Assembly (NCBI GenBank): GCA_965198115.1
Contig: OZ240241.1
Location: 1-64,000, forward strand
Reading direction: 5' to 3'
Length of the DNA: 64,000 nucleotides
Origin: Candidatus Latescibacterota bacterium
Lineage (GTDB): Bacteria > Latescibacterota > UBA2968
The notes beneath the pieces are model-generated. The model made no database searches. It saw only the letters and a program-made list of their open reading frames with translations, and was not told the origin of the DNA. Below are positions 6,786 to 64,000 of the stretch, piece by piece (within the stretch, counting starts at the first letter, position 1; each line of letters begins with the position of its first letter). The position numbers were made by a program, and so were the translations under genes.

Positions 6786-6831
6786 TTAAGATATAAAAAT
6801 CGGGCGACAGGCTCCCAGGGGTGGAATTGTT

Positions 6832-7305: not shown

Positions 7306-7655
7306 ACGATTCCCACACTGGCTGTACTGGCTGTCACCTGCAGTCGTAAGTCTCATTCGCCGCTCACCATCTGAGACGCTTATCGAAGTCAACAGAGAGG
7401 CGAAACAAGCACTTCGTGTGCCCAAGATAAATGCCAGTATCTCGACGTGGCAGGGTTCGGTCGGGGTCGTTACAAGGCGTCTTCCTCTTGGAGTGGTATA
7501 CGCATACAGCACATCGCGACGAGGTCGGGCGTTTCTGAACCGCCTTGGGCGCTTAGGGATCTCAACAGTTGGCGGTCTTACAGTCGCGTCGACTGATAGC
7601 ACATTCTTTCTGCGACAGGTGCAGCTGAAGACTCTCCAGCGGTTTGCGATTGCCC

Positions 7656-9050: not shown

Positions 9051-9069
9051 GTCTGATTCCTCGTCTAGA

Positions 9070-9525: not shown

Positions 9526-9548
9526 ATGTATCGCCCCAGGATTCTTAG

Positions 9549-9982: not shown

Positions 9983-10163
9983 GTTTGACGGCTTTCGCTC
10001 TACGCGGCCGGGTCCTGGACGACAAAGTCGCGTCGCACCTGAGCGGGGCTTCCGTAAGCGTACTTCTCCAGCATCCATCGAACACTCTCTCGCAATCAAG
10101 TGTCCAAGAAAACTCCGGGACGCAGGAGTAGGTACTGCAATCAATATCTTGGTCTCGTTTAGA

Positions 10164-27222: not shown

Positions 27223-27684
27223 CTAACCGGATAAGCAGATCCGACTAATGATTTCTGTCGTTGAAACTCCATCTACTAGGCCAACGGTGACAACGCGTCC
27301 TCCACTGGACTCCACTATTTCACGACCCACAACCTCATGAGGACGGTAATCTCCCCCTTTAGCAAGCACGTCAGGAGCCACCTCTTGTAGGAGGAGTTCA
27401 GGGGTATCCTCCGCAAAGACAACGACGTAATCCACGCTCTCCAAACCCGCCAAGGCGAGTGCTCGATCTTGTTGACCCATTATGGGACGGCCTGGTCCTT
27501 TTAGTCTCCGGACTGACTCATCACTGTTTACCGCGACGATGAGTCTATCTCCAAGACGCTTTGCCTCCTCCAGGTATATGACATGCCCGCTGTGGAGCAG
27601 GTCGAAGCAACCATTTGTGAACACAATCCGATCACCTCTCGAGCGGCAAAACGCCACATCGGTCCTTAGAGACTCGCGACCCAT
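27223..27684 (-). CDS. rfaE2: D-glycero-beta-D-manno-heptose 1-phosphate adenylyltransferase (HldE domain II)
   Basis: [37 protein letters not shown]. Confidence 0.92.
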
Positions 27685-27799
27685 GATCTTAGACCTTAAT
27701 CCAATGACTGCACCTCCCCCGCGCCCATCTGGCTAGTGCTGAAGATTTCGCATCAGAGTCGGGCGAATGCCACCGAGTAGTAGCCACACAAATTTATTT

Positions 27800-29219
27800 G
27801 GCTCTATCCGGGTTTCTCAACGGTGAAACTATAGAATGACAAGGTCATAGATCGTTCCCTACGCTTGGTTGTGTGTGTAGGACAATCAAAGCGAAGGGGG
27901 TGCGACCTATGACCGGGAGCAGATTACTATCGAAACTGCTGAGATTCAAGGGGTTCCGTGTTGTCAGCTGGTGGTTTGAGGGGAGAAGCTGTTTCGTCAT
28001 CGCCGTAAAGCCACATAAGAATGGTTGTTGTTGTCCGGAGTGCGGCCGTCGAGGTAAAATCGTCCGCACAATGCCCCATCCGCGTCGGTGGCGTGACATT
28101 CCGGTGTGCGGGTGGAGGGTCTGGCTTCTCTACCATCCTCGGGAGATTCGGTGTCCTACCCACGGTCGTGTGGTCGAGGAGATTCCGTGGGCGGAGCGGT
28201 TCTCTCGGGTGACGTATCGCTTCGAGTATGCCATGCTGCGCTACTGCCAGACCATGACGCAGAAGGCGGCGTCCGAGTTACTGCGCATCTCTGCCTCGAC
28301 GCTGTCGGATCTCCTTCACCGATCCATCACGCGGCTTCGTGAAGGTCATCGTATCCGAGGGCTCAAAACCATCGGGATCGACGAGATCTCCTACGCCAAG
28401 CGTCACAGGTACGCCACGCTCGTTTACGATCTGGACCGCTCCTGCGTGGTGTGGGTTGGCCGCGGCAGGGCGCGTAAAACGATCGATCGGTTCTTCACAG
28501 AGGCTCTCAGTCCCTACCGGAGATCCAAGATCGAGTGGGCCTGCTGCGACATGAGCGAAGCTTACATCGGAGCCATCCAGGAACACTGTCCGAATGCCAA
28601 GCTGGTCCTCGATCGCTTTCACATCGTCAAGGCTCTCAATGCCGCCGTTGACGAGGTCCGTAAGGACCAGTGGCGTAAAGCTGCCCCGGATGAGCGCAAA
28701 GCCATGAAGGGCCTCCGATGGCTCCTCTACCGGCACTCAGCGACACGCTCCAGAGGGGATACTCGGACACTCAAAGCACTGGAGAAGGCGAACTACCGAA
28801 TCTATAGAGCCTGGAGACTCAAGGACGAGTTCGAGCAGTTCTGGGAATACAAAGCGCCCTGGGCTGCCGAACGCTTCCTGAAATGCTGGACGACGTCCGC
28901 ACTCAGAAGTCGACTTGAACCCCTGCGAAAGTTCGTCAGGACCCTGCGACAGCACTTCTTCGGCGTCCTCGCATTCGTGAACACGCGTCTTACCAACGCC
29001 ATCGCCGAAGGCCTCAACCGAATCGTCCAAATCGTCAAGAACCGAGCCAGCGGATTCCGCACACTCGACGCATTCAACGATATGATCTTCCTTACCGTCG
29101 GAGACATAAACATCCCTGAGCAGATTCCGAAGAGGTTCCGCACACTCTAACCGCGCCCCCATGCCAGGAACCACGGCACCTTCACCCACTTCATCTCGTT
29201 GAGAAATCCGGATATAGCC
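27800..29219 (+). mobile_element. ISL3 family element, intact transposase
   Basis: CPECG zinc finger, IGIDE, CDM, DRFHIV, TNAIAEGLN. Ends ggctctatccgg / ccggatatagcc; 8-bp TSD atttattt. Confidence 0.95.
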
Positions 29220-29327
29220 ATTTATTTGCATATTGCACATATTCTCGAAATTGATTAAGGTCACCTGCCAGAAACGCGAGTCACTAGGGATTTCTCTCGG
29301 AAGAATAGATACCTAAGAAAGAGCAAA

Positions 29328-31663
29328 TTGCAAACAAAAATGCTCGAATTTGCAAGCAGAGGGGCGTCGCTATCTGCTGCCTCTGGAGAGAATCTCAGGG
29401 GGGTGATAGCTGGATTCTCCCAAGAAGAAGGTACTGGTCTTTGGAGATCTCATCCTCGATCACTACGTGTGATTGGTGAAGTAACTCGTGTTTCACCGGA
29501 GGCAGGTGTGCCTGTCTTGGTGTCAGATAGGAAGTGACAACAATGGAGATCGAGTATTGCAGCTTGCGCGGTATCTGTCTTGGATGATGCCACCAATCCC
29601 TATTACCATCCTTTGCTTGCGCACTACTACCAAGACACGTGTGATGGATGGAGGAAAGCATCTTACTGAGAATGACCCTATCAGTCAGGATGCCATGGAG
29701 CGATTGGAAGAAGGTATTGTTGAGATGCTCCGATGAAAGTATAGACGTGATATACGTAGCAGATTACGCGAAGGGCTCGGTGTCTTGTGAATCCACGGAT
29801 CTGGTTCGCCACCTTGGGGCTCAGCTTAAGTGTCCCATTGTGGTGGACCCCAAGGGTGATGATTTTGGCAAGTATCTCCGGCTTACTTCCATCACGCCCA
29901 ATACAGCCGAGGCAATTCAGGCTACGAAATTCGAATGCTCCGATGAACTACAGGCCAGTGCGATTATAGCCAATGAGCTTGGACTCGATTCAGTCTCCTA
30001 ACTCGAGCAGAATTCGGTCAAGTCCCATAGTCAGTTGAAAACTCATCGGGCCCCGTAGTTTGGTCAGGCTCTCTTTTGAGCATTCTGTTCGTTGTCGAGA
30101 TTCAGATCTTTGTTCAGTGCTTGCCTGAGTAGGGGAAGATGTTTGTATCCGCTCACGCGTCGCAGGCGAGGTTCGATGTCGAGGAGTGCGGCAGCCACCC
30201 ATCTGTGTCTCTGGGGAGAGTTGTTCCAGCGTCTGACCTTCCGAGTGAGCTCGCCGGTCATGCTGTTGAGGGCTTCGATGCAGTTGGTGGTTCGGAAGCT
30301 TCGTTTCAAGAATGGGAGCATACCCAGCCGGTGGAGGGTCAGGGTTTCCTCCAGGCCTTCCTCGAGGCTCGTTACGGCAGACTGATTCATCAGCTTCAGT
30401 TCGGGTTTAAGTGATTCGAGTGCGGCCTTTGCCTCCTCGTAGGTGTCGCAGTCATAGGCTTTCTGGAGCTTCCGTCGAACTCTTGGACGTTCCCTCTCCG
30501 GGAGATAGCTGACGACATTCTCGCGCTTGTGCCACTGACAGCGATGCACGCGCACATACCCTTTGAGGGCTTTGGTGACAGCACTGCGGAGTCCCTTTGA
30601 GCCGTCAAGCACAACGAGAAGGCCCTGGTCGTAGCACAGGCCTCTCCGGATGAGGTCCTGGATCAGCTGGCGGCAGATCCGTTCGTTCTCCGTCGCCGAT
30701 TCGACGAAGCCCAGGGGGATCTTCTGGCCGTCCATCGTGACCCCCAGAGCGATCACGATCTCTTCGTCGGCAAAGCTCTTTCCGTCAATGAACAGGGTCA
30801 CGAAGCCGTAGTCGTCGAGGGGACGCTCCTGGAACTGCTTCAGCTTCTTCGCGGTGGCTTTGATGAACCGCCGCGAGACGGAGGACGCTGAGATACCAAA
30901 CGCTTCTGGAACCGATTCGGCACAGGCCTTGTAGTTGCGGCACGAGATCCCCTTGAGAACACGAAGCAACAGCCCCTCGTCCGTCTTCTTGGGCGTCTGT
31001 AGAGCCCGGTATGCAGCCAGGGAAACCTCTGCGTCGGCCTCGACGTCGCGCACCCGGGGAACGTCTAACGGGAGCTTCTGGTCCATCAGATACACGGATC
31101 CCTTCTGGCTTCCCCACCGACGATGCGCCTGCTCCGAACCTTTGCGCGCATACCGAACGCCTGCGAGCTGCTCGACCTCCTGCTGGAGGAGGTCTGCCAC
31201 TGCCTCCAGACCCAACGGGATCAACGCCTGGATCACCGACAAACGCGTCTCCAAATCGATGACATCGCCCTCAACCTTGACTTCACCATCGCCTACAAAT
31301 AGCTTCTCCATCTGGGCTCCTTTCTTACGGGTATACGCTCCTACACGTCTACCCAACGTAAGTTTGGAGCCCTCTAAGTTTCAACTACGATAGGCACAAC
31401 ACCCAGAATTCGGAGCGGCCCTCATACGTTCCAGCGGGAAGTATACAGAGTTCAGCAACGCATGCCCAAAGGTTATAGATGTGACTGGAGCGGGCGATTC
31501 GGCCGGTGCTGCCTTTGCCTTATCGATAGCGTGTTATGCAACTCACGAAGATGCGGCCTTTATTGGCAACACAGCGGGTGGCGTTTCCGCTGCAAAGCCA
31601 GGATGTTCAATCGTAACCGCCGCCGAGTTGGTGGGAAACCTGGGAGGGAGGATCCTGGTTTAG
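29328..31663 (+). pseudogene. rfaE1: Heptose-7-phosphate kinase (HldE domain I, PfkB family): frameshifts, an apparent deletion and an IS256 insertion
   Basis: Across frames: VLVFGDLILDHY, RVSPEAGVPV, TTTKTRV, DYAKG, VDPKG, ITPN..E, LTR, and after the IS, DVTGAGDS. The GGAANV segment is not found. Confidence 0.85.
30016..31403 (-). mobile_element. IS256 type A, intact, inserted in rfaE1
   Basis: Full transposase ORF; both ends present; 8-bp TSD cagaattc. Confidence 0.95.
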
Positions 31664-31690
31664 CTCAGAGACAATTCCGGTTTCAAATGT

Positions 31691-34415
31691 GAGGTCGAGT
31701 CAAGAGGTGTGTAAATAGATCAGGCGGCCAGCTTCTTCCCGGAGTCGATTGTGGTCATAGTTTGGTTGTGCTGTGCATAAACAACGTGTAACAGATGGGG
31801 TGCATTGAGTCGCCGGAAGCGTTTCTCGGCGACCATCAGTGTTCGCCAGATGAGAGCGCTTGCCGCGACGACCTTCTTGTAGCGTTTGGCGGCGTTGGTT
31901 CGTAACCGCACGGATGCAAAGGGGCTCTCGACGATGTTGGTCGTTCTCAGGTGGCGCCAGTGTTCTTCTGGGAAATCGAAGAAGGTGAGCATCCTATCCC
32001 AATCCCGTTCGAGTGTTGCCACCGCCTTCGGGAACTCGTTGCGATATCGTGCGACGAACTGCTTGCGCAGCTTCTCCGCATCCTGACGCGTGCTGGCATA
32101 GGGAATCTGGACGAGCAGTGCACGAGCTTGAGGCTGCTGACGTTTGTGGATCTGGTCCGAGACGTTGAGAATCTTGTGGTTCCAGCACCGCTGCTGACGG
32201 GTGTGCGGCCAGACCTGATCGACGGCAGACCAGATGCCCATATTGCCATCGGCCGCCATCAGAATGGGGTGATCCAAGCCGCGATCCCGTAGGTCTCTAA
32301 GGACAGCCAGCCAGGACTCGGTCGACTCGCGATACCCAGGCACCAGGCCCAGAACCTCTTTGCGGCCGTCACTCATGGCGCCGATCACGACAAGCAGACA
32401 CGCCTTATCTTTCTCAAGTCCGGCTTTGACGTAGATCCCATCGGCCCAGGCATACACGAGCTCACGATCGTCCAGGCGTCGTTCCTGCCAGGTCTGGTAA
32501 TCAACCTCCCATTGACCGCGGAGGCGAGCAATCGACGAGGGGGAGAGCGGAGCCCCATCACCGAGAAGCCCTCGCAGGGCCAACTCGAAGTCGCCCTGAG
32601 ACAGACCGTGGAGATAGAGCTCCGGGAGCAGTTCCCCCACCTCTCTCGTGCGCCGAGCGAACAACGGCAGAATCCTGCTCTCGAAGCGCTCCTCCAAACC
32701 GCGAACACGGGGCCGCTTGATCTGGATCGTGCCGCAAGAGGTCGACAATCGCCGCAGCTTCCCATAGCCGTTGCGATAACCGGATCCTGCATCTACGGCT
32801 TCTTTGCGGCTCTATCCGGGTTTCTCAACGGTGAAACTATAGAATGACAAGGTCATAGATCGTTCCCTACGCTTGGTTGTGTGTGTAGGACAATCAAAGC
32901 GAAGGGGGTGCGACCTATGACCGGGAGCAGATTACTATCGAAACTGCTGAGATTCAAGGGGTTCCGTGTTGTCAGCTGGTGGTTTGAGGGGAGAAGCTGT
33001 TTCGTCATCGCCGTAAAGCCACATAAGAATGGTTGTTGTTGTCCGGAGTGCGGCCGTCGAGGTAAAATCGTCCGCACAATGCCCCATCCGCGTCGGTGGC
33101 GTGACATTCCGGTGTGCGGGTGGAGGGTCTGGCTTCTCTACCATCCTCGGGAGATTCGGTGTCCTACCCACGGTCGTGTGGTCGAGGAGATTCCGTGGGC
33201 GGAGCGGTTCTCTCGGGTGACGTATCGCTTCGAGTATGCCATGCTGCGCTACTGCCAGACCATGACGCAGAAGGCGGCGTCCGAGTTACTGCGCATCTCT
33301 GCCTCGACGCTGTCGGATCTCCTTCACCGATCCATCACGCGGCTTCGTGAAGGTCATCGTATCCGAGGGCTCAAAACCATCGGGATCGACGAGATCTCCT
33401 ACGCCAAGCGTCACAGGTACGCCACGCTCGTTTACGATCTGGACCGCTCCTGCGTGGTGTGGGTTGGCCGCGGCAGGGCGCGTAAAACGATCGATCGGTT
33501 CTTCACAGAGGCTCTCAGTCCCTACCGGAGATCCAAGATCGAGTGGGCCTGCTGCGACATGAGCGAAGCTTACATCGGAGCCATCCAGGAACACTGTCCG
33601 AATGCCAAGCTGGTCCTCGATCGCTTTCACATCGTCAAGGCTCTCAATGCCGCCGTTGACGAGGTCCGTAAGGACCAGTGGCGTAAAGCTGCCCCGGATG
33701 AGCGCAAAGCCATGAAGGGCCTCCGATGGCTCCTCTACCGGCACTCAGCGACACGCTCCAGAGGGGATACTCGGACACTCAAAGCACTGGAGAAGGCGAA
33801 CTACCGAATCTATAGAGCCTGGAGACTCAAGGACGAGTTCGAGCAGTTCTGGGAATACAAAGCGCCCTGGGCTGCCGAACGCTTCCTGAAATGCTGGACG
33901 ACGTCCGCACTCAGAAAGTCGACTTGAACCCCTGCGAAAGTTCGTCAGGACCCTGCGACAGCACTTCTTCGGCGTCCTCGCATTCGTGAACACGCGTCTT
34001 ACCAACGCCATCGCCGAAGGCCTCAACCGAATCGTCCAAATCGTCAAGAACCGAGCCAGCGGATTCCGCACACTCTAACCGCGCCCCCATGCCAGGAACC
34101 ACGGCACCTTCACCCACTTCATCTCGTTGAGAGATCCGGATATAGCCTTCTTTGCGCTCATACCACCCGCGTCCGAGGAACTGGGTCACTTCCTCCTCAA
34201 CGATGGACTGAATGCGAACCTCGATTTCCTTACGCAACCACCCCTCAAGGGTTTCCCACGTCGGCATGGACAACGAGGGGGACTTCGACTTATGTTTTCC
34301 CACGGCGATCCTCCTTCCCACCGGGCCTGTGAACCCGGTATTTCGTGGATATTGTTATCTCACGGGAAGTGTAGGGTCGCCTTTTCTATTTTTCCACACC
34401 TATTGATTGTAGCTC
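31691..34415 (-). mobile_element. IS256 type B variant interrupted by ISL3
   Basis: WADG, AADG, RCWNHK, RTTNIVES. Flanking repeat aaatgt(ga). The 5' part lies at 34148-34415. Confidence 0.88.
32808..34147 (+). mobile_element. ISL3 copy with a +1 frameshift and an 81-bp deletion
   Basis: Same ends as 27800-29219; TSD ttctttgc. Confidence 0.92.
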
Positions 34416-34433
34416 AAATGTGAGGGAGGCCGA

Positions 34434-36383
34434 ATGTTCCGCAGATTTTTGGAGGGAATCACCTCCAAAGAGCGCAGGTTAACTGTCAGCAGCGAGAACG
34501 TGGAACTACATCCTGGTCAAAACGGCGAGAAACTTGCGCTCATGAAAGCGGGGATAGGAGGAGAGTATGTTCCGGTGAGGCCTGCTGAGGCCAAACTCTT
34601 GCGCCGCGCTCAAGAGAGTGGCGGTGTCAGGGTGTCTGATTTAGTCTACTGGAAGTATAGCGACCTGTGGTGGCTAGTCAGCAAACCTTTTGCCTCTATA
34701 TCGACCGGGATGTTTAGAAGATTCGGGCAGTCCATCCAGCGGTACTTTGACAGAGTGTTGATGGTGAATCGTCTGCTCTTCTATCCGATTAGAAGGATGC
34801 TGAGGTTGGGCCCAAGGGGGAGTTGCTTTGATGCGGTTGTTGTCCTTTGGTCGGGATCAGACTGTTACCAACGGATTGTAAGCATTGGACGAGAGATGGC
34901 GGATTCTCTTAAGGATGAGGGACCACGAGCTTACTTGGTAGCAGATGAAGATGAGAGCTTGATGGTCAGAGATCTCTGTCACCTATATCAAACGCAGAAG
35001 CTTGACATCTTGTTGCAGACATTTGACCAGAAGAACTACAGAGTACTTCTGGTTGTCGACTTTAGACTCTTCTGGCGAACACTTCTTGCTATCGCACGGA
35101 TCAGACTCCGGGGACATAAAGTGTGGATAGCAAGCCTCTGTGCGAGATCCAGCGTATTCTCCTTCTATTTTCGTTTCTCTCCGTGGAATATGTCCGTTGT
35201 GATGGTCGACAGGGCGTTGAGCGCTGTGAAAAACATGATTGTCCGCACATTACTTTGCTTTTGGTCAGCCGGCAGGAAGCGGCAAGGGGGCACTGAGGGC
35301 ATCCTTGTAATAAACACTTGTACTAGTCTAGGCGACACGATCTTGAACATGCGGCTTGTGAAGCATGCGGGTGGAGAGCTTGATGCCAAGCCGTACGTTG
35401 GCGTTTTCGATCCTCGTAGCGAGATGTTATGGAAGGCCGTTCCAAACGTTGAGGTAATTCGATTCGAACGTAGTGGAACGGGCAAGGTGCTCTCAACCCT
35501 TATCAAGAACATTCGGACACTCGTGTCCCTGAGGAATCAAGTACGCTTTACTCATGCAGTCAATGCGTACGGCCATAGAGAAGACATGATGATGATAGAC
35601 TACTTGCTATGGTCCTCGGGTGCCCCGATTCGCGTGGGTGTCTGCTCACCTCCGTATCTCTTTGGATCGTTCTCAAGTTTACTTACACACCAAGTTAGCT
35701 TGGATTCCTACATAAAGTCTGGCAGATATGAATCTGTACTCTGTAGGCTCCATGAGAGCATTCTTGCTTGCCTGACTGGTGGGGGGCACCGCTCTGTTGA
35801 TCTCGACCTTCCCGAATTGATAATACCTGACCAGGCGGCTGCAAAGCGCGCTGAGGCCGCTATTCGGAAGTCGATCTCGACCGGCCGTGAGTTCATCCTG
35901 CTTGCCCCGACTTCCAAGAGAAACAAGATGATTCCACCATTGATAGCGAAGAAATTGGTTTCGCGCATCGTTGAGAGACTAGGAAGAGATGTTCTTGTGA
36001 CCTGTACGCAGAACGAACTGTGGCAGGTTAGGTCTCTACGGTCTCCTAACGTCCACATCATTGGTCCCCTTGATATTTACCAGCTCGCAGAGACGTGCCG
36101 GCGTGCATCTTGCGTTCTGGCTATTGACAATGGCTCCATGCACCTTGCGTGCTGGGCAGGTGCAAGAGTAGTAGGGATTTTCGGGCCGACGGATCCTCTG
36201 CTGTGGCTTCCACATAGAAGGTCCGGGGTTGAAGTAGTGCGCACGTCAGTTTGTGAACCTTGTGGAAACGTCTTCAGTTGTCATCTTGATGATGCTTCTG
36301 AGGTGAGAAGCTGCCTAAACACGCTGGACCCTGACGACGTGGTTGATGCTATCATCAGAACAGAAATCTGCACTAATATGTGA
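34434..36383 (+). CDS. GT9 (heptosyltransferase-like) glycosyltransferase with a ~290-aa N-terminal extension
   Basis: SLGDTIL, AIDNGSMHLA, GIFGPTDP..W.P, CEPC...C...SCL. RBS ggagg. Confidence 0.85.
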   Translation: MFRRFLEGITSKERRLTVSSENVELHPGQNGEKLALMKAGIGGEYVPVRPAEAKLLRRAQESGGVRVSDLVYWKYSDLWWLVSKPFASISTGMFRRFGQSIQRYFDRVLMVNRLLFYPIRRMLRLGPRGSCFDAVVVLWSGSDCYQRIVSIGREMADSLKDEGPRAYLVADEDESLMVRDLCHLYQTQKLDILLQTFDQKNYRVLLVVDFRLFWRTLLAIARIRLRGHKVWIASLCARSSVFSFYFRFSPWNMSVVMVDRALSAVKNMIVRTLLCFWSAGRKRQGGTEGILVINTCTSLGDTILNMRLVKHAGGELDAKPYVGVFDPRSEMLWKAVPNVEVIRFERSGTGKVLSTLIKNIRTLVSLRNQVRFTHAVNAYGHREDMMMIDYLLWSSGAPIRVGVCSPPYLFGSFSSLLTHQVSLDSYIKSGRYESVLCRLHESILACLTGGGHRSVDLDLPELIIPDQAAAKRAEAAIRKSISTGREFILLAPTSKRNKMIPPLIAKKLVSRIVERLGRDVLVTCTQNELWQVRSLRSPNVHIIGPLDIYQLAETCRRASCVLAIDNGSMHLACWAGARVVGIFGPTDPLLWLPHRRSGVEVVRTSVCEPCGNVFSCHLDDASEVRSCLNTLDPDDVVDAIIRTEICTNM

Positions 36384-39349: not shown

Positions 39350-40996
39350 ATGAATCTGCTCGCAATTAACTTCAATCACGACGGATCTGCTGCTTTGATG
39401 TGCGATGGTGTGATAACCGGGTTTGTCAATACGGAGAGATTTTCGCGAAAGAAAAAGCAACCAGGAATCCGAGAATGTGATATAGATGAATTACTCGGGC
39501 AGGGAGGTATACGTATTGACGAGATTGACGGCGCCTTGATGTGCAACCTGAATAACATGGATTCCCCGGACATCCCTAGGCTGTACGGAACAGATCTCAA
39601 AGAAGAGTGGCTTGGATTCGAAGTGGATCCTGATCAACGACATGTGACGATAAGGGGAAACCGAATCCGCTGTAAAGTGAATCCAGATCACCACTTGCTC
39701 CATTGCGCCCTGGCGTTTTACACGTCACCGTTCGATTCTGCAATGGTCTTCTCATCGGATCCCGTGGGTTGGGCATCTTACGTGGGTAAAGGCCACGAGA
39801 TGAGAGGAGTCCAGAACGTCCCTGGTCAGTTCAACGCGCCAGAGCTTTATAGTAGGGTTGCCGAGTCCCTGTTTGGTACAGGGATTATGGGAGCAGGAAA
39901 GGTAATGGGGCTCGCCCCTTACGGGTTTCGAGAGTTGGATCTGGACTATGCTCAATTATCAGATGTCAGGACTACTATATCGCTTTATCGAGCCTTACGG
40001 AAACTTGGCATAGGCAGGGTGGTAGTCCAGGAAGATGAAAAAGCATATAATGCTAGTCTTGCATACCACACACAGGAGATTCTCGACTTTCAGTTAATCT
40101 CCATCCTCAAAGAGTTACACGAGGTTTCGGTGCAGGAAGGTGTTGATCCGAATCTATGCTTGGGAGGGGGAACGGCTCTCAATTCCGTCGCGAATCAGAA
40201 GGCGTTCAGCCACAGCCCGTTCACAGATCTTTTCTTGCATCCCGCGTGCGGAGATGACGGTACTACACTTGGGGCAGTTCTCTGGCACTGGCATCACGTG
40301 ATGAAGAATCCTAGGAGGAACTACTTAAACACCGACCTTATGTACACGAAAAAATGCTATCGAAGTGATCAGGTAGATGCCGTTCTGTTGTCAGGGAAGT
40401 ATCGAAACCATCTTACTGTCTGGAAGCATCCTGATCCTCTCCCGACGGTTGCTCGGATGATCAGCTCTGGCGCGATTGTAAGTCTGTTCGAGGGAGGAAG
40501 CGAAATTGGACCTCGTGCTCTTGGTCATAGAAGCATAATAGCAGATCCCCGTCGGCTGGGGATGCGGGATCAATTGAACGTAAAGGTAAAACATAGAGAA
40601 GCCTTTCGCCCGTTTGCCCCAGCAGTAATACAAGAACACTCCAGTTCGTGGTTTGATCTAAATTATAGCCCATTCATGTTACGGGTTGCGAATGTATTGA
40701 GGCCCAAAGAAGTCCCATCTATCACACACGTGGATGGCACCGCGCGCATCCAAACGGTCGGCCCTAATGACGATCAACGATTCCGAAAGTTGCTTGAACA
40801 CTTCTACTCAATGACGGGAGTTCCTGTTCTTCTCAATACGTCCTTCAACATTAGAGGTGAACCCATAGTAGAAACGCCTGAGGACGCAATAAGTGCGCTA
40901 CTACGGTCCGAAATGGACTGTGTCGTCTTTAGTGACTGCATCGTGCAAAAGAGAGACGGTGGTGATAAGTCCGCTTCCAGTTGTGTCGCCGATTGA
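39350..40996 (+). CDS. Carbamoyltransferase (NodU/CmcH/TobZ family)
   Basis: HDGSAAL, ERFSRKK, HHLLH, GKVMGLAPYG, GGTALN, GDDG, GPRALGHRSI, KHREAFRPFAP, HVDGTARIQTV, NTSFN. Confidence 0.95.
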   Translation: MNLLAINFNHDGSAALMCDGVITGFVNTERFSRKKKQPGIRECDIDELLGQGGIRIDEIDGALMCNLNNMDSPDIPRLYGTDLKEEWLGFEVDPDQRHVTIRGNRIRCKVNPDHHLLHCALAFYTSPFDSAMVFSSDPVGWASYVGKGHEMRGVQNVPGQFNAPELYSRVAESLFGTGIMGAGKVMGLAPYGFRELDLDYAQLSDVRTTISLYRALRKLGIGRVVVQEDEKAYNASLAYHTQEILDFQLISILKELHEVSVQEGVDPNLCLGGGTALNSVANQKAFSHSPFTDLFLHPACGDDGTTLGAVLWHWHHVMKNPRRNYLNTDLMYTKKCYRSDQVDAVLLSGKYRNHLTVWKHPDPLPTVARMISSGAIVSLFEGGSEIGPRALGHRSIIADPRRLGMRDQLNVKVKHREAFRPFAPAVIQEHSSSWFDLNYSPFMLRVANVLRPKEVPSITHVDGTARIQTVGPNDDQRFRKLLEHFYSMTGVPVLLNTSFNIRGEPIVETPEDAISALLRSEMDCVVFSDCIVQKRDGGDKSASSCVAD

Positions 40997-46345: not shown

Positions 46346-48727
46346 ATGATTAAAACATACTTTGCGCTGTGGATCCGAAACATTCGCAGGGACAGTCTGC
46401 AATCAGCAGTGAATATCTTCGGCTTATCGCTAGGAATGGCCTGCTGTATTCTGATTTTGTTGTACGTTCAGAGTGAGTCGAGCTACGATCAAAGTCACCA
46501 TAGTGGGGATAGGATTTTTCGTCTTGCGCAAGAGGTCGAGATTTCGGGAAGGACAAGATCTGTCGCTATTACGACCTATCCTATGGGCGAAGCATTAGTA
46601 GAAGAATACCCTGAGGTTTCAGAAATCGTCAGATTTAGAAAGGACGATGGAAGGACTCTTGTGGAGATCGGGAAAGACCGGTTCTTCGAGACAGGCGTAT
46701 TGTTTGTGGAGCCGAATGTCTTTAGAGTCTTCGACTTTCCTTTAGCAAGTGGGGATGCGCATGATGCGCTACGTAACCCGAGTTCCGTGGTCATTGCAGA
46801 ACACAGAGCTAAGAAGTACTTCGGGTCAACGAATGACGCATTGGGGCAGTCCCTAGTTATTGGCGGCGAATCCTACCAGATTTCAGGCGTAGCGGCGGAT
46901 ACGCCCGCGAAGAGCCACATCGAGTTTAATTTTCTGATTCCACTGTTGGAGGGTCGAGGGTGGTTGGATTTCAGGTACAAGTACTACACCTACATAGTCT
47001 TGGAGACGGAATCTTCGGATAAAGAGCTTAACGCAAAGCTGCCCGAATTCATCGAAAGACATCTTGGCGATCAACTACGAGCGGGGAGAATGGAACTTTC
47101 GCTCTTTCTGCAGAAGGTGACAGATATACATCTTCATTCGAACCTTGAGTACGAGATCAGCGGAAATGGTGACATACGTAGGCTTAGGATTTTTGCGGCT
47201 GTAGCAATCATGGTGCTTCTACTTGCTTGCTTCAACTATGTGAACCTATCAACTGCGCGCGCTGAGAGGCGTTTGAGAGAAATCGGGCTTCGAAAGACCG
47301 TAGGGGGAGGTCGTTCACAAATCTTTGGGCAGCTCCTTGGTGAGTCGTTCTTCCAGGCGTTGCTTGCTATGATGATCTCATTGCTATTGGTTGAGGGGGC
47401 AATTGGGGAATGGGGTGGTCTGCTTGATCTTAGGGTGACCTCTCCTTGGGGAGGGAGCTGGGCTGCGTGGCTAGTACCTCTTGGAGTTGGGCTGTTTTCG
47501 GGAATTCTCTCGGGAAGCTACCCAGCCGTTATCCTATCATCCGTTCGTCCCACCGAGGCTGTACTTGGATCATTTAAGACAAGATCAGCCTTACGCCGCA
47601 TTCTTGTTGTTTTTCAGTTTGTCATCTCTGGAGTCCTCATGATTTGCACTTGTGCGGTGTATAATCAGTGGGAATTCATGCGGACGAAATCTCCAGGATT
47701 TCAAAAGGAGAACATAGTTGTTATCCCTCTGGCAGGTAAAGATGACCGTGTAATTGATCAGTACAAGACAGCCATTCGAGCATACTCGCAGGTGATCAGC
47801 GCATCCGCATCCTCTATGGTTCCGGGTCGCGAGATTGCTAGTGGCCTTTTCCGGTCGTCCTCAGACAAGGAGAAGACCGAGCCACTCATGGTTAACTTGA
47901 TTAACGTCGTAGATCACGAGTTGGTCGATACATACCGCTTCAGCGTTTTAAAAGGGAGAACGATGCGCGACACCGACCAAGGAGTGGTCTTCTTGATCAA
48001 CGAATCTGCTCTGAGGATGTTTGGATGGAGTTCGATCGAAGGTCAGCAGCTGGAACAAGTCTATCCGGCGGGGGATGAGTTGAATGTCGAGGCTGTAGGG
48101 CCAGTGATAGGTGTTGTGGAGGATTTCCACTACCAATCCCTACATCATCTCGTCGAGCCCCTAGTTGTTGCGAATCTCCAGGAATGGGTCCAGTACCTCT
48201 CGATTCGAATTACAGGAGATGAGTTTGGGCGTACGCTGGTTTACCTTAGCGACCAGTGGCGCACCATCTCGCCTGAAACTCCATTTGAGTATTTTCTTCT
48301 TGATGCCGATCTGGAAAAACTATACCTCAAGGAGGAACGACAGAGCGCTATGCTCGGTGCATTCGCGGCAATTGCCATCATGTTGGCTGGCATGGGAATG
48401 TTCGGCCTAGTGTCGCAAACGACTCGACAGAGGATCAGGGAAATCGGAATGCGCAAGGTGCTTGGCGCGAAAAACTGGCAGTGCGCAACAGTCCTGCTTG
48501 GAAGACTCCTGCTGCTCTTGGGGATTTCGAACGTGATCGCATTGCCCATAGCATACATCGCATTCCGCCAATGGGTGCGTGATTTTCCATATCAGACGGA
48601 GATAGGTTCTCTCCCGTTCCTCATTGCGGCGGGTATGACTCTTCTAACCACGGTCGTCGCGATAGCCCACGAAATAAGCATTACCGCCCGAACAAGCCCG
48701 ATTGCAGTATTGCGGCGGGCCGATTGA
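46346..48727 (+). CDS. MacB/FtsX-like ABC transporter permease (duplicated architecture)
   Basis: NIFGLSLGMACCILI, DIHLHS, ACFNYVNLSTAR...REIGLRKTVG, LVVFQF, REIGMRKVLGA. Confidence 0.92.
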   Translation: MIKTYFALWIRNIRRDSLQSAVNIFGLSLGMACCILILLYVQSESSYDQSHHSGDRIFRLAQEVEISGRTRSVAITTYPMGEALVEEYPEVSEIVRFRKDDGRTLVEIGKDRFFETGVLFVEPNVFRVFDFPLASGDAHDALRNPSSVVIAEHRAKKYFGSTNDALGQSLVIGGESYQISGVAADTPAKSHIEFNFLIPLLEGRGWLDFRYKYYTYIVLETESSDKELNAKLPEFIERHLGDQLRAGRMELSLFLQKVTDIHLHSNLEYEISGNGDIRRLRIFAAVAIMVLLLACFNYVNLSTARAERRLREIGLRKTVGGGRSQIFGQLLGESFFQALLAMMISLLLVEGAIGEWGGLLDLRVTSPWGGSWAAWLVPLGVGLFSGILSGSYPAVILSSVRPTEAVLGSFKTRSALRRILVVFQFVISGVLMICTCAVYNQWEFMRTKSPGFQKENIVVIPLAGKDDRVIDQYKTAIRAYSQVISASASSMVPGREIASGLFRSSSDKEKTEPLMVNLINVVDHELVDTYRFSVLKGRTMRDTDQGVVFLINESALRMFGWSSIEGQQLEQVYPAGDELNVEAVGPVIGVVEDFHYQSLHHLVEPLVVANLQEWVQYLSIRITGDEFGRTLVYLSDQWRTISPETPFEYFLLDADLEKLYLKEERQSAMLGAFAAIAIMLAGMGMFGLVSQTTRQRIREIGMRKVLGAKNWQCATVLLGRLLLLLGISNVIALPIAYIAFRQWVRDFPYQTEIGSLPFLIAAGMTLLTTVVAIAHEISITARTSPIAVLRRAD

Positions 48728-51801: not shown

Positions 51802-51945
51802 ATGAAAGTGCTCAAGAAGCCAGTAGTGGCGCCCAGTGAGCAGGAGCTGCTCTACGAGGCGCTGGATTGCACCGAGGAGTGCTGTAGAGGCGGATGTCGG
51901 GTCAGAATCTTCGACACCGATGATACAGACGACATCCTCTTCTAA
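51802..51945 (+). CDS. Putative RiPP precursor peptide, 47 aa: MKVLKKPVVAPSEQELLYEALDCTEECCRGGCRVRIFDTDDTDDILF
   Basis: Hand-translated; below the ORF-track cut-off. RBS aaggag at 51788-51793. Leader-like N-terminus, Cys cluster, and position directly upstream of the rSAM/SPASM gene. Confidence 0.85.
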   Translation: MKVLKKPVVAPSEQELLYEALDCTEECCRGGCRVRIFDTDDTDDILF

Positions 51946-52240: not shown

Positions 52241-53743
52241 ATGAAATGCAGTGTGTACAACCTCATTATAGACCTTGGAGAAGACGATCGATACTTGCTC
52301 TTTAATACGCTTTCGGGAGCGCTGATTGAAGCAGAAGCCGATGTAGCACATATGCTAAAGAGACATATTGAGCCGACCCCAACTCCGAGATTGCAGCAGA
52401 CCTTTTCAGAAAACAAACCAATTCCTGAAAATGCTATCGCAGGCATTGACGAAGAACGTAGAGGGGTTTTGTCAGACTGTGGATTCTTGGTAGAAGACCA
52501 GAAGGATGAAGTCGCTGAAGTGAGGGAACTGGATGTCACCCGATTTGCGGCTAATCGAGATGCTGATCGGGGAACACTCTCGCTCACGATCCTGCCCAGT
52601 ATTCGATGTAATTTCGAGTGCTTCTATTGCTTTGAACCGTTGTCCCTAAGGCAGCAAGATAGTTCGATGACTGAGGAGGTTCAGGACAAGCTATGTACAT
52701 ACGTTGCGGAGAAGCTTCCGCTGCCAGAAATCAGAAAACTTAGCACAACGTGGTACGGTGGAGAACCTCTTCTCTACCCTCAGATCGTCGATTCTCTGCA
52801 GCGACGGATGAACGCGATTGCGGATGCGGAAGGCGTAAATGTGAAGAGCTCCATCGTCACGAACGGGTTTCTCTTGAGCCGAGATAACAGCGATATGCTT
52901 GTGGAGAACGGCATCACGACCGCCCAGGTAACACTCGACGGCCCTGCCAAAATTCACAATAAGAGGCGGCTGTACACACCAGATAGAAACGCGAACTACG
53001 ACACAATCCTTACCAATCTCGCTAATGCAAACCCCGAGATGGATGTCATCATCCGCGTCAATGTCGGATCACACAATTCTGAGACAATAGAAGAATTGGT
53101 AAACGATCTCACCGAAGCTCGAATCTGGCCTTACCGACGGGGAATCGGTGTCTACTTGGCTCCCGTAACTGGAGGTAAAGACTCACTACCTCGAGGGGAA
53201 TATCTATCCCTTGAAGATGATTTCCGACTGGATATGGTCCGCAAATTCAACGAGTTGACCGATGGACCTAGAGCGAAGCTCGAGTTCAAACTTCCTTCGC
53301 TCACTAACATTTCTCAATGCGGTCACATAGTGGACGAAAAACACATCTGGGTGGTTGATCGTGTGGGGGATGTTTTCCGGTGCTGGGATGTTCCTGGCCA
53401 GGAGAGTCATTGTGTTGGCACGTTGGATGACCTGATTCACGATAGGATCAACGGGCTCAATCGTTGGGTCATGAATCCAGAAATACGTGAGGAGACGGGA
53501 TGCTATAAGTGCAAGATGGCCCCAGTATGTACTGTCCCCTGTCCCTCGCATTACTTCTCTGAATGGAAATCTGGCGAGTATCTCGGAAAATACGACGACG
53601 GAAATCCTTTTTGCTGCGATTGGAAATTCGGGATCGAGAACAGGCTAGCTTCCGAGTACAAGTTCTACTCTGAGTCTCCTGAGTTGGTCTATGGGTTTCC
53701 AGGTGAAGGTAGCACGGAGAACTTACTCCAGATTGCTGACTAA
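52241..53743 (+). CDS. Radical SAM/SPASM domain peptide maturase
   Basis: CNFECFYC, WYGGEPLL, VTNG, QVTLDG; SPASM C...GDVFRC...CYKCKMAPVCTVPCP...C. N-terminal extension resembles an RRE. RBS aggagg. Confidence 0.93.
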   Translation: MKCSVYNLIIDLGEDDRYLLFNTLSGALIEAEADVAHMLKRHIEPTPTPRLQQTFSENKPIPENAIAGIDEERRGVLSDCGFLVEDQKDEVAEVRELDVTRFAANRDADRGTLSLTILPSIRCNFECFYCFEPLSLRQQDSSMTEEVQDKLCTYVAEKLPLPEIRKLSTTWYGGEPLLYPQIVDSLQRRMNAIADAEGVNVKSSIVTNGFLLSRDNSDMLVENGITTAQVTLDGPAKIHNKRRLYTPDRNANYDTILTNLANANPEMDVIIRVNVGSHNSETIEELVNDLTEARIWPYRRGIGVYLAPVTGGKDSLPRGEYLSLEDDFRLDMVRKFNELTDGPRAKLEFKLPSLTNISQCGHIVDEKHIWVVDRVGDVFRCWDVPGQESHCVGTLDDLIHDRINGLNRWVMNPEIREETGCYKCKMAPVCTVPCPSHYFSEWKSGEYLGKYDDGNPFCCDWKFGIENRLASEYKFYSESPELVYGFPGEGSTENLLQIAD

Positions 53744-53807
53744 GGCTGAACTGATTTCGGACTTTATGAAGCTTCTGACGCCGATCTCTTTTCTGGGAAG
53801 CTGCGAA

Positions 53808-55679
53808 ATGAAATTGCTGGGTCTGAGGTTTGTGCTTGTAGTATGGATCACTACTGCTTGCACATACGACGTTACCGCAGCAGAACCGTACGACCTAAGC
53901 TACAGCGTATTCGCCCAGGACTCCGTGCTGTACAGATGGAACACGTCGGAAGGAGTGGTAGATGGTATGCTGGTCCGCCACAGATTCCCTCCCTTGGAAC
54001 TCTGGGAGACATACCTATCGGAGGGGCTAGAAGCTCAGGAATACACGGAGAACGTGGTCTTCGCCTCGCGGGATTCCTCTGTTTATGGATGTGGCTTTGG
54101 AATAGACTATCCAGTCCTCATACCCCGGAACGTACATCCGTACCTGACGGCACGCATATACGCTGATGGGCTTGGGCCCATTAAAGTCTGGATCCAGCTC
54201 CAGAACGATTGGATTTCCGTTCCCAAGGTAATCTCCGCCAAGGGCTACGACAAGATTGAGATAGGCCTAGGTAAACTGATAGGTTCTAGTAGGAAAATTT
54301 CCGGCGTGAAGATGATCGCTGAACGAAGGAGCTTGAATGGCAGACTCATCGTTGGGGCTGTTCAGGTGACGACGAGGAGATTCCTAAAATGGCGATTTGG
54401 GGATAGGAGACCCGTTCCTATCAGGGCCCCATTGGGTGGCAGAGGCCCATTCGAAAGCTGGCCTCAGTGGGTGGGGTCTTTCGGTGATGGACCGGCGTTG
54501 AGATTTGGTGGTGGAACTGTCCCGGCGATGGCCAACCTGATGTCTGATCTGTTAAGAAAGTATTCTCGATACAGCATGAAGGACGTTAGTGTGAGCCAGG
54601 TGCTACGCCAACACGAGCAGCTTCTGCGTCCAGATATTGGGATCATAGAGTATTTAGATGGGCTGGAAGAGATCCTCGTACCACTCGGTGATACTCATTT
54701 TCGAGTTAATAGACCGACCTACAGACACAGTACAACTCAACTCAATGATGTTGTGAAGTTCTATAGAATTGACGGACGTGTTATCGTTTCCGCTGTCTTC
54801 AGTCCTCGTCTTCAAAAGGTGATCTCGGAAGGCGACGAAGTCACTGCCGTTGACGAAATGCCCATTGAGGATCACATAACGACAAGAACTATGTCCCTGG
54901 CAGGATCTACGGATTGGATCCGGGACCGGATCGTGATCGAGCGGCTGCTGACCAAGGAGGACTCTGTCGCAACTACAAGGGTCACCTTTCGGCGACCAGA
55001 TGGACAAGAGTATTCGATTGAACACCATACGAGCGATAGTCTGATGAGAGTCATCCCAAAGAATTTTCTAAAGGGAAGGTTCCACTACAAAGAGTTGGGA
55101 GAGTTCGCATACATACGTATAGGCACCTGGAGCGAAAAGACCTGGCCGTTCTTCTACTCCTACATTGACCGACTGAAAGAGAGCAAGGGGCTAATTCTTG
55201 ATCTGCGGAGTAATGGTGGAGGAGACCTTTCCTTCTGTAGAATCGCTTCGTGCTTTGTAGACAAGCCATCAGTGATTTTCTCCGTTTGCAACATCGAAGG
55301 TGAGGGGGTCGAATCCATTCTTTTAAGACCAGATCCCTTCTTCTTCTATCGTGGCCCGGTTGCTGTCCTAGTGGATACAAGAACCGGCTGTGCTTCAGAG
55401 TTATTCGTGAGTGCGATCAAAAGGTATCACAAGGACACCATAGTAGTCGGTCAGAGCCCGACAAGTGGCGCAGTCGGTTTCATCAGAACGATATCGCTTC
55501 CGGGAGGGAACGAGATCACCTTTCCTGAACCCGTTTTGGACGCCTACAGTCGTGATCTCGAAGGAGTTGGTGTACAACCAGATATGAAAGCCAGCTTCGA
55601 ATCATACCGGGACCTTGCACCTTATGACGATTCGCTTCTCGATCTTGCTATAGAGGCTCTTGCTCATCGTGCTATGTGA
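53808..55679 (+). CDS. S41-family peptidase-like secreted protein with a PDZ-like domain
   Basis: Signal-like N-terminus, GDTH, GDEVTAVD, YIRI, LILDLRSNGGG, TGCASE, EGVGVQPD. Start at 53808 or 53766. Confidence 0.85.
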   Translation: MKLLGLRFVLVVWITTACTYDVTAAEPYDLSYSVFAQDSVLYRWNTSEGVVDGMLVRHRFPPLELWETYLSEGLEAQEYTENVVFASRDSSVYGCGFGIDYPVLIPRNVHPYLTARIYADGLGPIKVWIQLQNDWISVPKVISAKGYDKIEIGLGKLIGSSRKISGVKMIAERRSLNGRLIVGAVQVTTRRFLKWRFGDRRPVPIRAPLGGRGPFESWPQWVGSFGDGPALRFGGGTVPAMANLMSDLLRKYSRYSMKDVSVSQVLRQHEQLLRPDIGIIEYLDGLEEILVPLGDTHFRVNRPTYRHSTTQLNDVVKFYRIDGRVIVSAVFSPRLQKVISEGDEVTAVDEMPIEDHITTRTMSLAGSTDWIRDRIVIERLLTKEDSVATTRVTFRRPDGQEYSIEHHTSDSLMRVIPKNFLKGRFHYKELGEFAYIRIGTWSEKTWPFFYSYIDRLKESKGLILDLRSNGGGDLSFCRIASCFVDKPSVIFSVCNIEGEGVESILLRPDPFFFYRGPVAVLVDTRTGCASELFVSAIKRYHKDTIVVGQSPTSGAVGFIRTISLPGGNEITFPEPVLDAYSRDLEGVGVQPDMKASFESYRDLAPYDDSLLDLAIEALAHRAM

Positions 55680-62705: not shown

Positions 62706-64000
62706 GTGAGTGTCAAAGTAGCTGTCATAGACAGTGGGCTGTGCGAGTCCCATCCCAAGTTAAAAGGGGTACGCGTCACGGACCGCGTGTCGGTAGGAAG
62801 CGACGGGATTTCTCGAGGATGTACCAGCGATGTTTGGGGACACGGTACGGCCTGCACGCAGATAATTCACAGTGTTCTGGATAGAGAGCTTCGTAGGAGT
62901 TGTGAGTTCAAGATCGTAAAGGTTTTTGATCGCCAACTGGTGGTTAGTCAGGACATCCTTCTAAAAGCCCTCCTGTGGTGTATGGATTCGGGCGTAGACG
63001 TAATTAGTGTGAGTATCGGCGTTCGGGCGTCCTCGCCTCCCCAAGAGCTTGTGGACCTCTGTCTTGAGGCACATTCGAAAGGCATCATACTAGTAGCGCC
63101 AGACCACAACGAAGGGGATGGCCCATGCTACCCAGCGTCACTTTCGCATGTCTTTGGCGTTACAGGCGGAGTTTTGAGATCACGGCGTGAGTTTGGTGTT
63201 AACGAGGAGAGCGATATTGAGTTCGTTGGTCGGGGAACCAATCAACGTGTGGCGTGGATCAATGACTCCTACATCTTCGACAGCGGGACAAGCTTTGCCT
63301 CTGCGCAACTAGCAGGAATAGTGTGCAATGTAAGAGCGCAGTTTCCAGAATCTGATCCGTCAGAATTGAAAGCACACCTCATGTCAATTGGACTTAGAGG
63401 TGTGCCTATTACCAGCAGGTTTGTCTCTGCCGGAACAGGCACCGGCCGCTGGGCGCCCCAGGGGACAGACACGATTGAAGAGGTGGTCGAGCGGAATTTT
63501 TCACCCAAAAGATTCAGCTGGATGCGACGCGCTGCTCTCTATCCAGTATGTAACAAAGAATTTCACGCGATCGAGCACTTCAGTAGGCAATGCCAGTTTG
63601 AGCTTGTGGAAATTCTGGACTTTCCAAAGGGAGTGATTTCCCACCGAGATATTGAGATCGATGGAAGGAAATACACGAAAAAGTGGCGAGTAAGTGATAT
63701 TGAAAGGTCGTTTGATACCCTCATTGTTGGATATCCATACGAGACGCCCTTTGGCGCTGATCACAAGGCCTATAAAGACATCTTAGACCAGGCCTGGCAT
63801 ACGGAGTGCAACTTCTTTTGTCTTAGCGGCGATGTAGAGAAACAATTGCAAAAGGAAAGGGACAGCCTCGGTAAGGTGTCGTCACAGATTTACTGTCCAA
63901 GGGTTGACACAGCTGACCTTCAACGACTTGCGTGTCTCCAAAGTGAAGGTGAGACAACAAGACCGGTTCTCGCAGTAGTGGGGACAAATGAAAAGCAGGG
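62706..64000 (+). CDS. S8 (subtilisin-like) peptidase fused to a DUF1611-like P-loop region; partial, runs off the right edge
   Basis: Hand translation from GTG 62706 is open to the edge: VAVIDSG, GHGTAC, SGTSFAS (D/H/S triad), then AALYP..NKE...FDTLIVGY...PVLAVVGTNEKQG. Confidence 0.85.
   Translation, partial: MSVKVAVIDSGLCESHPKLKGVRVTDRVSVGSDGISRGCTSDVWGHGTACTQIIHSVLDRELRRSCEFKIVKVFDRQLVVSQDILLKALLWCMDSGVDVISVSIGVRASSPPQELVDLCLEAHSKGIILVAPDHNEGDGPCYPASLSHVFGVTGGVLRSRREFGVNEESDIEFVGRGTNQRVAWINDSYIFDSGTSFASAQLAGIVCNVRAQFPESDPSELKAHLMSIGLRGVPITSRFVSAGTGTGRWAPQGTDTIEEVVERNFSPKRFSWMRRAALYPVCNKEFHAIEHFSRQCQFELVEILDFPKGVISHRDIEIDGRKYTKKWRVSDIERSFDTLIVGYPYETPFGADHKAYKDILDQAWHTECNFFCLSGDVEKQLQKERDSLGKVSSQIYCPRVDTADLQRLACLQSEGETTRPVLAVVGTNEKQ

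What the first reader, a model, noticed from the sequence alone, without database searches (positions are those of the whole stretch)
27223..36383. Dedicated ADP-heptose genes plus an oversized GT9: possible peptide heptosylation, now decaying
Seen: split HldE domains are transcribed divergently. The kinase is co-oriented with a 649-aa GT9 that carries ~290 extra N-terminal residues. No other LPS core genes, gmhA or gmhB appear in the window. The kinase is the only cluster gene broken by an IS, and it has further lesions. Established: ADP-heptose also feeds protein heptosylation (AAH/TibC) and septacidin biosynthesis. Inference: the extension may recognise the peptide, and the kinase may be dispensable because a housekeeping hldE supplies the donor.
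Basis: partly seen in the sequence, partly recalled or inferred. Interest (0 to 1): 0.7.

Follow-up and report, generated by a model that had tools for sequence, protein, structure and literature searches.

The report
Orphan heptose transferase beside peptide cluster
In a bacterium with no detectable lipid A genes, an unusually long sugar-transfer gene and two heptose-activating genes (one of them broken) sit at the edge of a modified-peptide gene cluster, and likely add a seven-carbon sugar to that peptide, a modification I found no report of.

Summary
The anatomy is confirmed: an intact hldC, a divergently transcribed hldA kinase pseudogene (one IS256, 5 frameshifts, a ~25-codon deletion; contigs of the likely source sample agree) and, 39 bp behind it once IS are removed, an intact 649-aa GT9. 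Its residues 285-649 fold like WaaF and keep the catalytic motifs. The genes form the left end of a uniformly low-GC island holding a DD(I/V)LF-type RiPP cluster (precursor, radical SAM, arginase, proteases, JmjC, GT1, carbamoyltransferase). The host has no detectable lpxC, lpxB, kdsA or kdtA, so Kdo-lipid A is an unlikely acceptor. Two first-reader inferences need correction. No intact canonical hldA/hldE was found, only a divergent paralogue. The module is not decaying as a whole: only the kinase is hit, while the GT9 is lesion-free. The 285-residue extension has no detected homologue; an RRE is hinted at by low-confidence models but not shown. RRE-GT9 fusions between radical SAM genes do exist in two genomes of the same class, but are not shown to be related over the extension. 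None of 9 related clusters has hld genes. Peptide heptosylation is the best reading, about 0.4.

The parts
27223..27684 (-). hldC (rfaE domain II), heptose-1-phosphate adenylyltransferase, intact, 153 aa
   Evidence: TIGR02199 200.2 bits over cut-off 181.5
27800..29227 (+). ISL3 element in the hldC-kinase spacer, 8-bp target duplication at 27792 and 29220; spacer about 270 bp without it
   Evidence: PF01610; about 249 copies in the genome
29340..31663 (+). hldA (rfaE domain I) heptose-7-phosphate kinase pseudogene: 5 frameshifts, ~25-28-codon deletion, IS256 insertion
   Evidence: contigs identical over 29175-30042
30017..31412 (-). IS256 inside the kinase, 9-bp target duplication
   Evidence: PF00872
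31694..34424 (.). Nested IS256 + ISL3 block between kinase and GT9; 39 bp separate the kinase stop and GT9 start without it; ribosome-binding site retained
34434..35285 (+). GT9 N-terminal extension (about residues 1-284): predicted three strands then helices, then a small alpha/beta module; no homologue found
35286..36383 (+). GT9 (GT-B) catalytic part with S-L-G-D301, K498, D565-x-G-x-x-H570 and four C-terminal cysteines
   Evidence: PF01075 42.6 bits; Z 30.4 to 3tov and 30.3 to WaaF 1psw
39350..40996 (+). Carbamoyltransferase (NodU/CmcH-like), co-oriented; 50 non-IS bases from the GT9 stop, but across a rearranged IS block without a clean target duplication
   Evidence: PF02543, PF16861
41060..41917 (-). 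JmjC/cupin hydroxylase, 35% identical to the one at 60300
46346..48727 (+). MacB/FtsX-type ABC permease
51802..51945 (+). 47-aa Cys-rich precursor peptide ending in DDILF
   Evidence: NF052472 weak, 14.6 bits, below cut-off 30
52241..53743 (+). Radical SAM/SPASM maturase, closest to FlmE/OhkG
   Evidence: NF052473 220 bits, below cut-off 500
53691..55679 (+). S41 peptidase
   Evidence: PF03572
55737..56969 (+). GT1 (MGT-like) glycosyltransferase inside the RiPP operon
   Evidence: TIGR01426 123.9 bits
58601..61175 (+). ABC exporter and second JmjC hydroxylase
62706..64000 (+). S8 peptidase-DUF1611 fusion (ends at 64613); an acyl-carrier-like gene and a peptide arginase (64882-65760) follow beyond the window

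Best explanation
The hldC, broken hldA and long GT9 genes lie at the left end of a low-GC island that carries a DD(I/V)LF-type peptide cluster, and they likely form a sugar-tailoring branch that would transfer D,D-heptose from ADP-heptose onto the maturing peptide. Shown: gene identities, operon layout, kinase lesions, GT9 fold and motifs, and no lipid A/Kdo genes found in the host. Inferred: (1) host GmhA-like and GmhB enzymes plus island HldA and HldC made ADP-D-glycero-D-manno-heptose (no hldD over cut-off); (2) the GT9 uses it on a hydroxyl of the peptide (Thr, Ser, Tyr or a JmjC-made hydroxyl) or on the sugar added by the cluster's GT1; (3) the N-terminal extension engages the precursor; (4) the kinase became redundant because a divergent host kinase can supply the step, so the GT9 stayed under selection.
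For: Host: lpxC, lpxB, kdsA and kdtA not found (controls rang); lpxC in 0 of 61 genomes including relatives. Island: protein genes from hldC to the arginase have GC 0.47-0.53 and GC3 0.49-0.55 against genome medians 0.60 and 0.72; only the 144-bp precursor departs from this. Without IS the GT9 stop is 5.4 kb from the precursor, across genes of types found in flm/ohk clusters (JmjC, FtsX permease) plus the carbamoyltransferase. The RiPP operon already contains a GT1. The GT9 has 0 lesions where 10.5-12.6 are expected at the kinase's rate (P about 3e-5 to 3e-6). gmhB passes its cut-off (TIGR00213 167 against 149.6), a gmhA-like gene, a second hldC and a full-length hldA paralogue are intact. Both AlphaFold runs put three strands then a helix at residues 23-62, the start of an RRE topology. 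Precedent: in G054 and G058 a GT9 with an N-terminal segment matching radical SAM RREs (E 5e-7 to 9e-4) sits between two radical SAM/SPASM genes behind a short ORF.
Against: None of 9 flm/ohk-type clusters carries hldA or hldC: 2 published, 4 loci with 5-21 kb of sequence, and 3 genomes read over 40-80 kb. The one GT9-like gene near such a cluster (G451) belongs to a neighbouring cyclophane-type operon. The extension shows no significant similarity to two RRE profiles, to the P0008 look-alike family (rank 753 among 3381 decoys) or to the G054/G058 extension (22-23 of 400 shuffles as high; rank 80). The model of the extension has pLDDT 40-60. In two trees the GT9 does not group with the RRE-type GT9s, though on a long branch. 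Relatives without lpxC keep canonical hldA and hldC next to a GT4 or similar gene, so ADP-heptose serves other glycans in this lineage. The GT9-carbamoyltransferase junction is rearranged, so original adjacency is not proven. The dnd island to the left is also low-GC. The donor is inferred from family and neighbours only.
Confidence: 0.42

Rival explanations
1. The hldC-hldA-GT9(-carbamoyltransferase) genes are a separate glycan cassette from the same donor or insertion site that heptosylates a surface glycan, glycolipid or small molecule, with no link to the peptide; the extension binds membrane or acceptor.
For: 0 of 9 related RiPP clusters have hld genes. Relatives without lpxC carry hldA/hldC beside GT4 or similar genes. 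The extension is basic (45 K+R against 26 D+E) with an amphipathic stretch at 92-109. The best structural matches are glycolipid-acting GT9s. The host has 6 further carbamoyltransferase loci.
Against: No flippase, polymerase or other glycan gene was found in the island besides the GT1 inside the RiPP operon. Composition is uniform across both parts. The carbamoyltransferase ends 63 bp from a JmjC gene of the cluster's type.
Confidence: 0.36
2. The genes are leftover LPS-core genes (WaaF/WaaC-like) carried in from a lipid A-making donor and useless here; the kinase merely broke first.
For: Fold closest to WaaF, WaaC and the Veillonella GT9; the kinase is dead and no canonical replacement was found.
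Against: TIGR02193/02195/02201 scores are 19-23 bits against cut-offs of 135-185. The host has no detectable Kdo-lipid A genes. The GT9 is lesion-free while its operon partner has at least 6 lesions. A 285-residue orphan extension is not a feature of the solved WaaC/WaaF structures.
Confidence: 0.12
3. The GT9 heptosylates a larger secreted or surface protein encoded elsewhere, working like AAH/TibC without being a family member.
For: TibC is a structural relative (Z 20.3, rmsd 4.5, 290 aligned); four C-terminal cysteines are present; TibC also needs an N-terminal accessory domain (PMC4358343, passages).
Against: WaaF-type chains match far better (Z 30). The four cysteines are shared by 99-101 of 102 aligned GT9s, so they are not diagnostic. 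No TibC/AAH family model hit. No autotransporter was seen in the window.
Confidence: 0.1

Closest known systems
flm and ohk clusters, orphan DD(I/V)LF RiPP family (PMC12703449; read: abstract, introduction, results 2.1-2.2, supplement parts 4-5)
   Same: Precursor ending DDILF, radical SAM/SPASM, peptide arginase, S41 and S8 peptidases, JmjC/cupins, carrier-protein-like gene, ABC and FtsX transporters.
   Different: Tables S2/S3 list no glycosyltransferase, heptose gene or carbamoyltransferase; all listed precursors are from Bacteroidetes; the radical SAM here scores below the family cut-off.
LPS core heptosyltransferases WaaC/WaaF (GT9; 1psw, 2h1f) and Veillonella GT9 (3tov)
   Same: GT-B fold over residues 285-649, catalytic Asp and nucleotide-site motifs.
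   Different: About 15-18% identity, family scores far below cut-off, 285 extra residues, host without detectable Kdo-lipid A genes.
AAH/TibC autotransporter heptosyltransferases (PMC4358343; passages read)
   Same: ADP-heptose-type GT-B enzyme with an N-terminal accessory domain and four C-terminal cysteines; acts on polypeptide.
   Different: TibC has a 97-residue N-terminal beta-barrel, a non-Rossmann N-lobe and an autotransporter target; weaker structural match and no family hit here.
Septacidin pathway (PMC9978623; two passages read)
   Same: ADP-heptose used outside LPS in a natural-product pathway.
   Different: Acceptor is AMP, product a nucleoside; no peptide precursor.
Uncharacterised RRE-GT9 fusions of G054 and G058 (found here) and look-alikes P0008/P0151/P0152
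   Same: 600-660-aa GT9 with about 270-300 extra N-terminal residues; same class of bacteria (G054, G058); radical SAM neighbours.
   Different: Their RRE is detectable by sequence, the window's is not; no homology shown over the extension; no hld gene was seen beside them.

Membership tests
GT9 family | PF01075 match over cut-off | tested here: met
   42.6 bits against 22
GT9 family | Two-Rossmann GT-B fold with catalytic Asp and D-x-G-x-x-H motif | tested here: met
   Z 30.4, rmsd 2.9, 329 aligned to 3tov; D301, D565, G567, H570 conserved in 89-100 of 102 rows
WaaC/WaaF/WaaQ LPS core heptosyltransferases | Equivalog score over cut-off | tested here: not met
   19-23 bits against 135-185
WaaC/WaaF/WaaQ LPS core heptosyltransferases | Host makes Kdo-lipid A | tested here: not met
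   lpxC, lpxB, kdsA, kdtA not found in the genome
AAH/TibC (BAHT) | Family sequence match | tested here: not met
   No such model among Pfam or NCBIfam hits; phmmer of PDB finds only 3tov
AAH/TibC (BAHT) | N-terminal beta-barrel | tested here: inconclusive
   Extension predicted alpha/beta, at pLDDT 40-60
AAH/TibC (BAHT) | Four-cysteine iron finger, dodecamer | tested here: inconclusive
   C607, C610, C616, C627 present but common to ordinary GT9s; metal and oligomer untested
RRE-fused RiPP tailoring enzyme | Three strands then three helices (order as defined in PMC12710340, passages) | tested here: inconclusive
   Seen in the alignment-based model, only the first four elements in the single-sequence model; both low confidence
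RRE-fused RiPP tailoring enzyme | Sequence match to RRE profiles | tested here: inconclusive
   No match, but the first own profile missed the G054 GT9 RRE and the second missed the window's radical SAM N-terminus
RRE-fused RiPP tailoring enzyme | Binds the precursor leader | not testable with these tools
   Needs a binding assay or a complex prediction
DD(I/V)LF RiPP cluster | Precursor with C-terminal DD(I/V)LF and several Arg | tested here: met
   47-aa ORF at 51802-51945 ends DDILF, 3 Arg
DD(I/V)LF RiPP cluster | PF12640 peptide arginase nearby | tested here: met
   PF12640 67 bits over cut-off 27; NF052474 312 bits, under its 350 cut-off
HldC (rfaE domain II) | TIGR02199 over cut-off | tested here: met
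   200.2 against 181.5
Housekeeping HldA/HldE elsewhere in the genome | Intact TIGR02198 match over cut-off | tested here: not met
   Best 131.7 against 345; 16 of 60 relatives reach 329-354

The most novel reading that the evidence does not exclude
This cluster makes a heptosylated RiPP: a GT9 with its own highly divergent leader-binding (RRE-like) domain puts an ADP-heptose-derived sugar, perhaps then carbamoylated, on an ornithine-containing, cross-linked peptide. With the RRE-GT9 fusions of G054 and G058, this would make GT9 a family of peptide-tailoring enzymes in bacteria that appear to lack lipid A.
Probability: 0.27. Interest if true: 0.78.

Novelty: new variant of a known kind. Interest (0 to 1): 0.52.

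Why it matters
Glycosylated RiPPs are rare. A 2025 paper's introduction lists glycocins, nine thiopeptides, two lanthipeptides and lasso peptides, mostly with GT2-type enzymes, and has no occurrence of 'heptose' or 'ADP' (PMC11912497, passages). Four full-text searches listed no heptosylated RiPP or GT9 RiPP enzyme, judged from titles and term counts; most subscription papers are not searched. A GT9 acting on a defined 47-residue peptide would add a new RiPP modification, give a leader-directed heptosylation tool, and offer a use for ADP-heptose genes in a lineage without detectable lipid A genes. The product of DD(I/V)LF clusters is still unknown, and the test needs only two genes and a commercial-type donor.

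Tried and rejected
Homologue searches for the whole GT9: only itself among near-length proteins; among 1.84 billion representatives none of the best 150 has its best stretch starting before residue 272. ESM Atlas gave no usable hit for either extension, which shows neither absence nor novelty. Fold searches with the low-confidence extension model gave no Foldseek hit at E<=0.001 and only generic alpha/beta matches for residues ~110-250 (best Z 9.0, rmsd 3.0, 103 aligned); no RRE chain was listed, which is inconclusive. The P0008 family first looked homologous over the extension; shuffle, decoy and tree tests did not support it, and a metagenome scan found no locus for it. The idea that the middle segment is a duplicated GT9 N-domain was not supported for this protein (165 of 2000 shuffles as high). 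A suspected ABC-ATPase remnant before the MacB gene was not supported. Radical SAM locus scans returned mostly distant relatives at 24-39% identity; the six closest (46-54%) could not be read in context. The carbamoyltransferase has no close relative in 167 other genomes or in plasmids. Peptide arginase: 2 of 167 phylum genomes and 1 of 301 in another family. No RNA holder listed. A first in-silico IS excision was off by four bases and was redone. Paper searches gave nothing useful.
Full report
Setting. The window is bases 1-64000 of an 8.43-Mb single-contig genome, 59% GC, rated 100% complete and 5.1% contaminated. It is dense with IS elements: about 249 ISL3 and 90-146 IS256 matches.

Observation. 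hldC (27223-27684, minus strand) passes TIGR02199. After an ISL3 with a clean 8-bp duplication, a kinase on the plus strand runs from about 29340 to 31663. Its two readable pieces score about 125-165 against 16 canonical HldA proteins of relatives and 31 and 78 against the host's paralogue, so it is a true hldA. Alignments to 6 references give 5 frameshifts, a deletion of about 25-28 codons, and an IS256 with a 9-bp duplication. Contigs of one sample match the kinase's left part and the GT9 without a difference; this may be the source sample. Removing the nested IS block leaves 39 bp between kinase stop and GT9 start, so they were one operon, divergent from hldC.

The GT9. PF01075 matches residues 467-610. 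An AlphaFold model on 102 sequences is mostly confident from about residue 260 on; residues 285-649 align to the Veillonella GT9 (Z 30.4, rmsd 2.9), WaaF (30.3) and WaaC (27.4), and less well to TibC (20.3). D301, K498, D565, G567, H570 and four cysteines are conserved. It is an orphan: 2667 representatives match at E<=0.001, the best at 89 bits, and none of the best 150 covers the first 270 residues.

The extension. Both models begin with strands at 23-27, 33-38 and 45-48 and a helix at 50-62; the alignment-based one continues with two more helices, the RRE order, then an alpha/beta module. Confidence is 40-60, and that alignment held three look-alike proteins that could bias it. No family, profile or fold test confirmed an RRE. 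My two RRE profiles each missed a control, so these negatives are weak. The question stays open.

The island. A 47-aa ORF at 51802-51945 ends in DDILF. With the radical SAM, S41, S8-DUF1611, carrier-like gene, peptide arginase, two JmjC genes and transporters it matches the orphan DD(I/V)LF RiPP clusters of PMC12703449, whose gene tables list no sugar genes. This copy adds a GT1, a carbamoyltransferase and the heptose genes. Protein genes from hldC to the arginase lie in the lowest 2% of the genome for GC and about 1% for GC3; the tiny precursor and the kinase fragment depart somewhat. That fits one acquisition but does not prove it, since the dnd genes further left are also low-GC and the GT9-carbamoyltransferase junction is rearranged. 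Intact genes make up 88% of the IS-free DNA, yet none of 9 IS blocks falls in them (P about 6e-9 if uniform; IS target preference would weaken this), and the GT9 has none of the 10-13 lesions expected at the kinase's rate. The cluster, GT9 included, therefore looks maintained, and only the kinase is lost.

The host. lpxC, lpxB, kdsA and kdtA were not found, nor lpxC in 60 relatives. gmhB passes its cut-off; a gmhA-like gene (108 of 209 bits) and a second hldC (57% identical) are intact; no hldD passes. No intact canonical hldA or hldE was found: the best match has 131.7 bits, while 16 of 60 relatives have 329-354. The second hldC sits before the same GT4 as in relatives but without their hldA. 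The 131.7-bit paralogue follows a homologue of the gene that precedes hldA in relatives, so it is a candidate substitute, untested.

Comparisons. Among 158 radical SAM loci, 0 had hldC or a carbamoyltransferase hit and 1 had a GT9-like gene (L102, in another RiPP-like operon); 4 were flm/ohk-like. Clusters in G132, G058 and G451 have no hld genes; G451 has a 601-aa GT9-like gene ending a neighbouring cyclophane-type operon, detected by my own GT9 profile but not by Pfam. In G054 and G058, of the same class, a GT9 with an N-terminal segment 33-48% identical to radical SAM N-termini lies between two radical SAM/SPASM genes behind a short ORF with a conserved start. So GT9 enzymes in peptide-modifying operons are real, but the window's enzyme is not shown to be their relative over the extension.

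Verdict. The acceptor is unlikely to be Kdo-lipid A. Heptosylation of the cluster's peptide is the most likely single reading (0.42), closely followed by an unrelated glycan acceptor (0.36). Donor, acceptor and the role of the extension are inferred. It works like a heptosyltransferase, is a GT9, and is neither a WaaC/F/Q equivalog nor an AAH/TibC member. That WaaC uses an N-terminal Asp as base and the order GmhA-HldA-GmhB-HldC are recalled knowledge.

Noticed in passing
L238:2500-8877 (G054:C128) and L254 (G058:C2:2582351-2588083): Conserved operon: sigma-54 regulator, short ORF with a conserved start, RRE-radical SAM/SPASM, RRE-GT9 fusion (664 aa; the G058 copy stops at 454 aa), a second SPASM protein lacking the usual radical SAM cysteine motif in G054, and a GT4. 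A cleaner candidate for GT9 peptide glycosylation than the window's gene.
   Followed up: partly
L229:2169-8238 (G451): Cyclophane-type radical SAM, C39-ABC, HlyD and a 601-aa GT9-like gene lie directly behind an flm/ohk-type cluster with three near-identical precursors.
   Followed up: partly
L102:7538-8803: 421-aa GT9-like gene inside a Bacteroidota RiPP-like operon, sharing an F-I-G-D motif with the G451 protein; no Pfam hit.
   Followed up: partly
proteins P0008, P0151, P0152: 622-646-aa GT9s with a winged-helix-like start (weak RRE profile match for two of three); genomic context unknown.
   Followed up: partly
whole genome and 60 relatives: lpxC not found in any of 61 genomes, although 16 of the 60 relatives keep a canonical hldA; the use of ADP-heptose in this lineage is unexplained.
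   Followed up: partly
window 616-11939: DndB-like, cysteine desulfurase, DUF4007 and SNF2 helicase genes, probably a phosphorothioation-type defence locus; part of it (1674-4937) is repeated elsewhere in the genome.
   Followed up: no
G000:C1:2870558-2872531: Tight array of about 20 tRNA genes, typical of a mobile element.
   Followed up: no
L221-L224 (G132:C1:696542-710863): An flm/ohk-type cluster (S41, radical SAM, S8, arginase, ABC) in the same class, outside Bacteroidota-type hosts; no DDILF-type precursor found by my pattern.
   Followed up: partly
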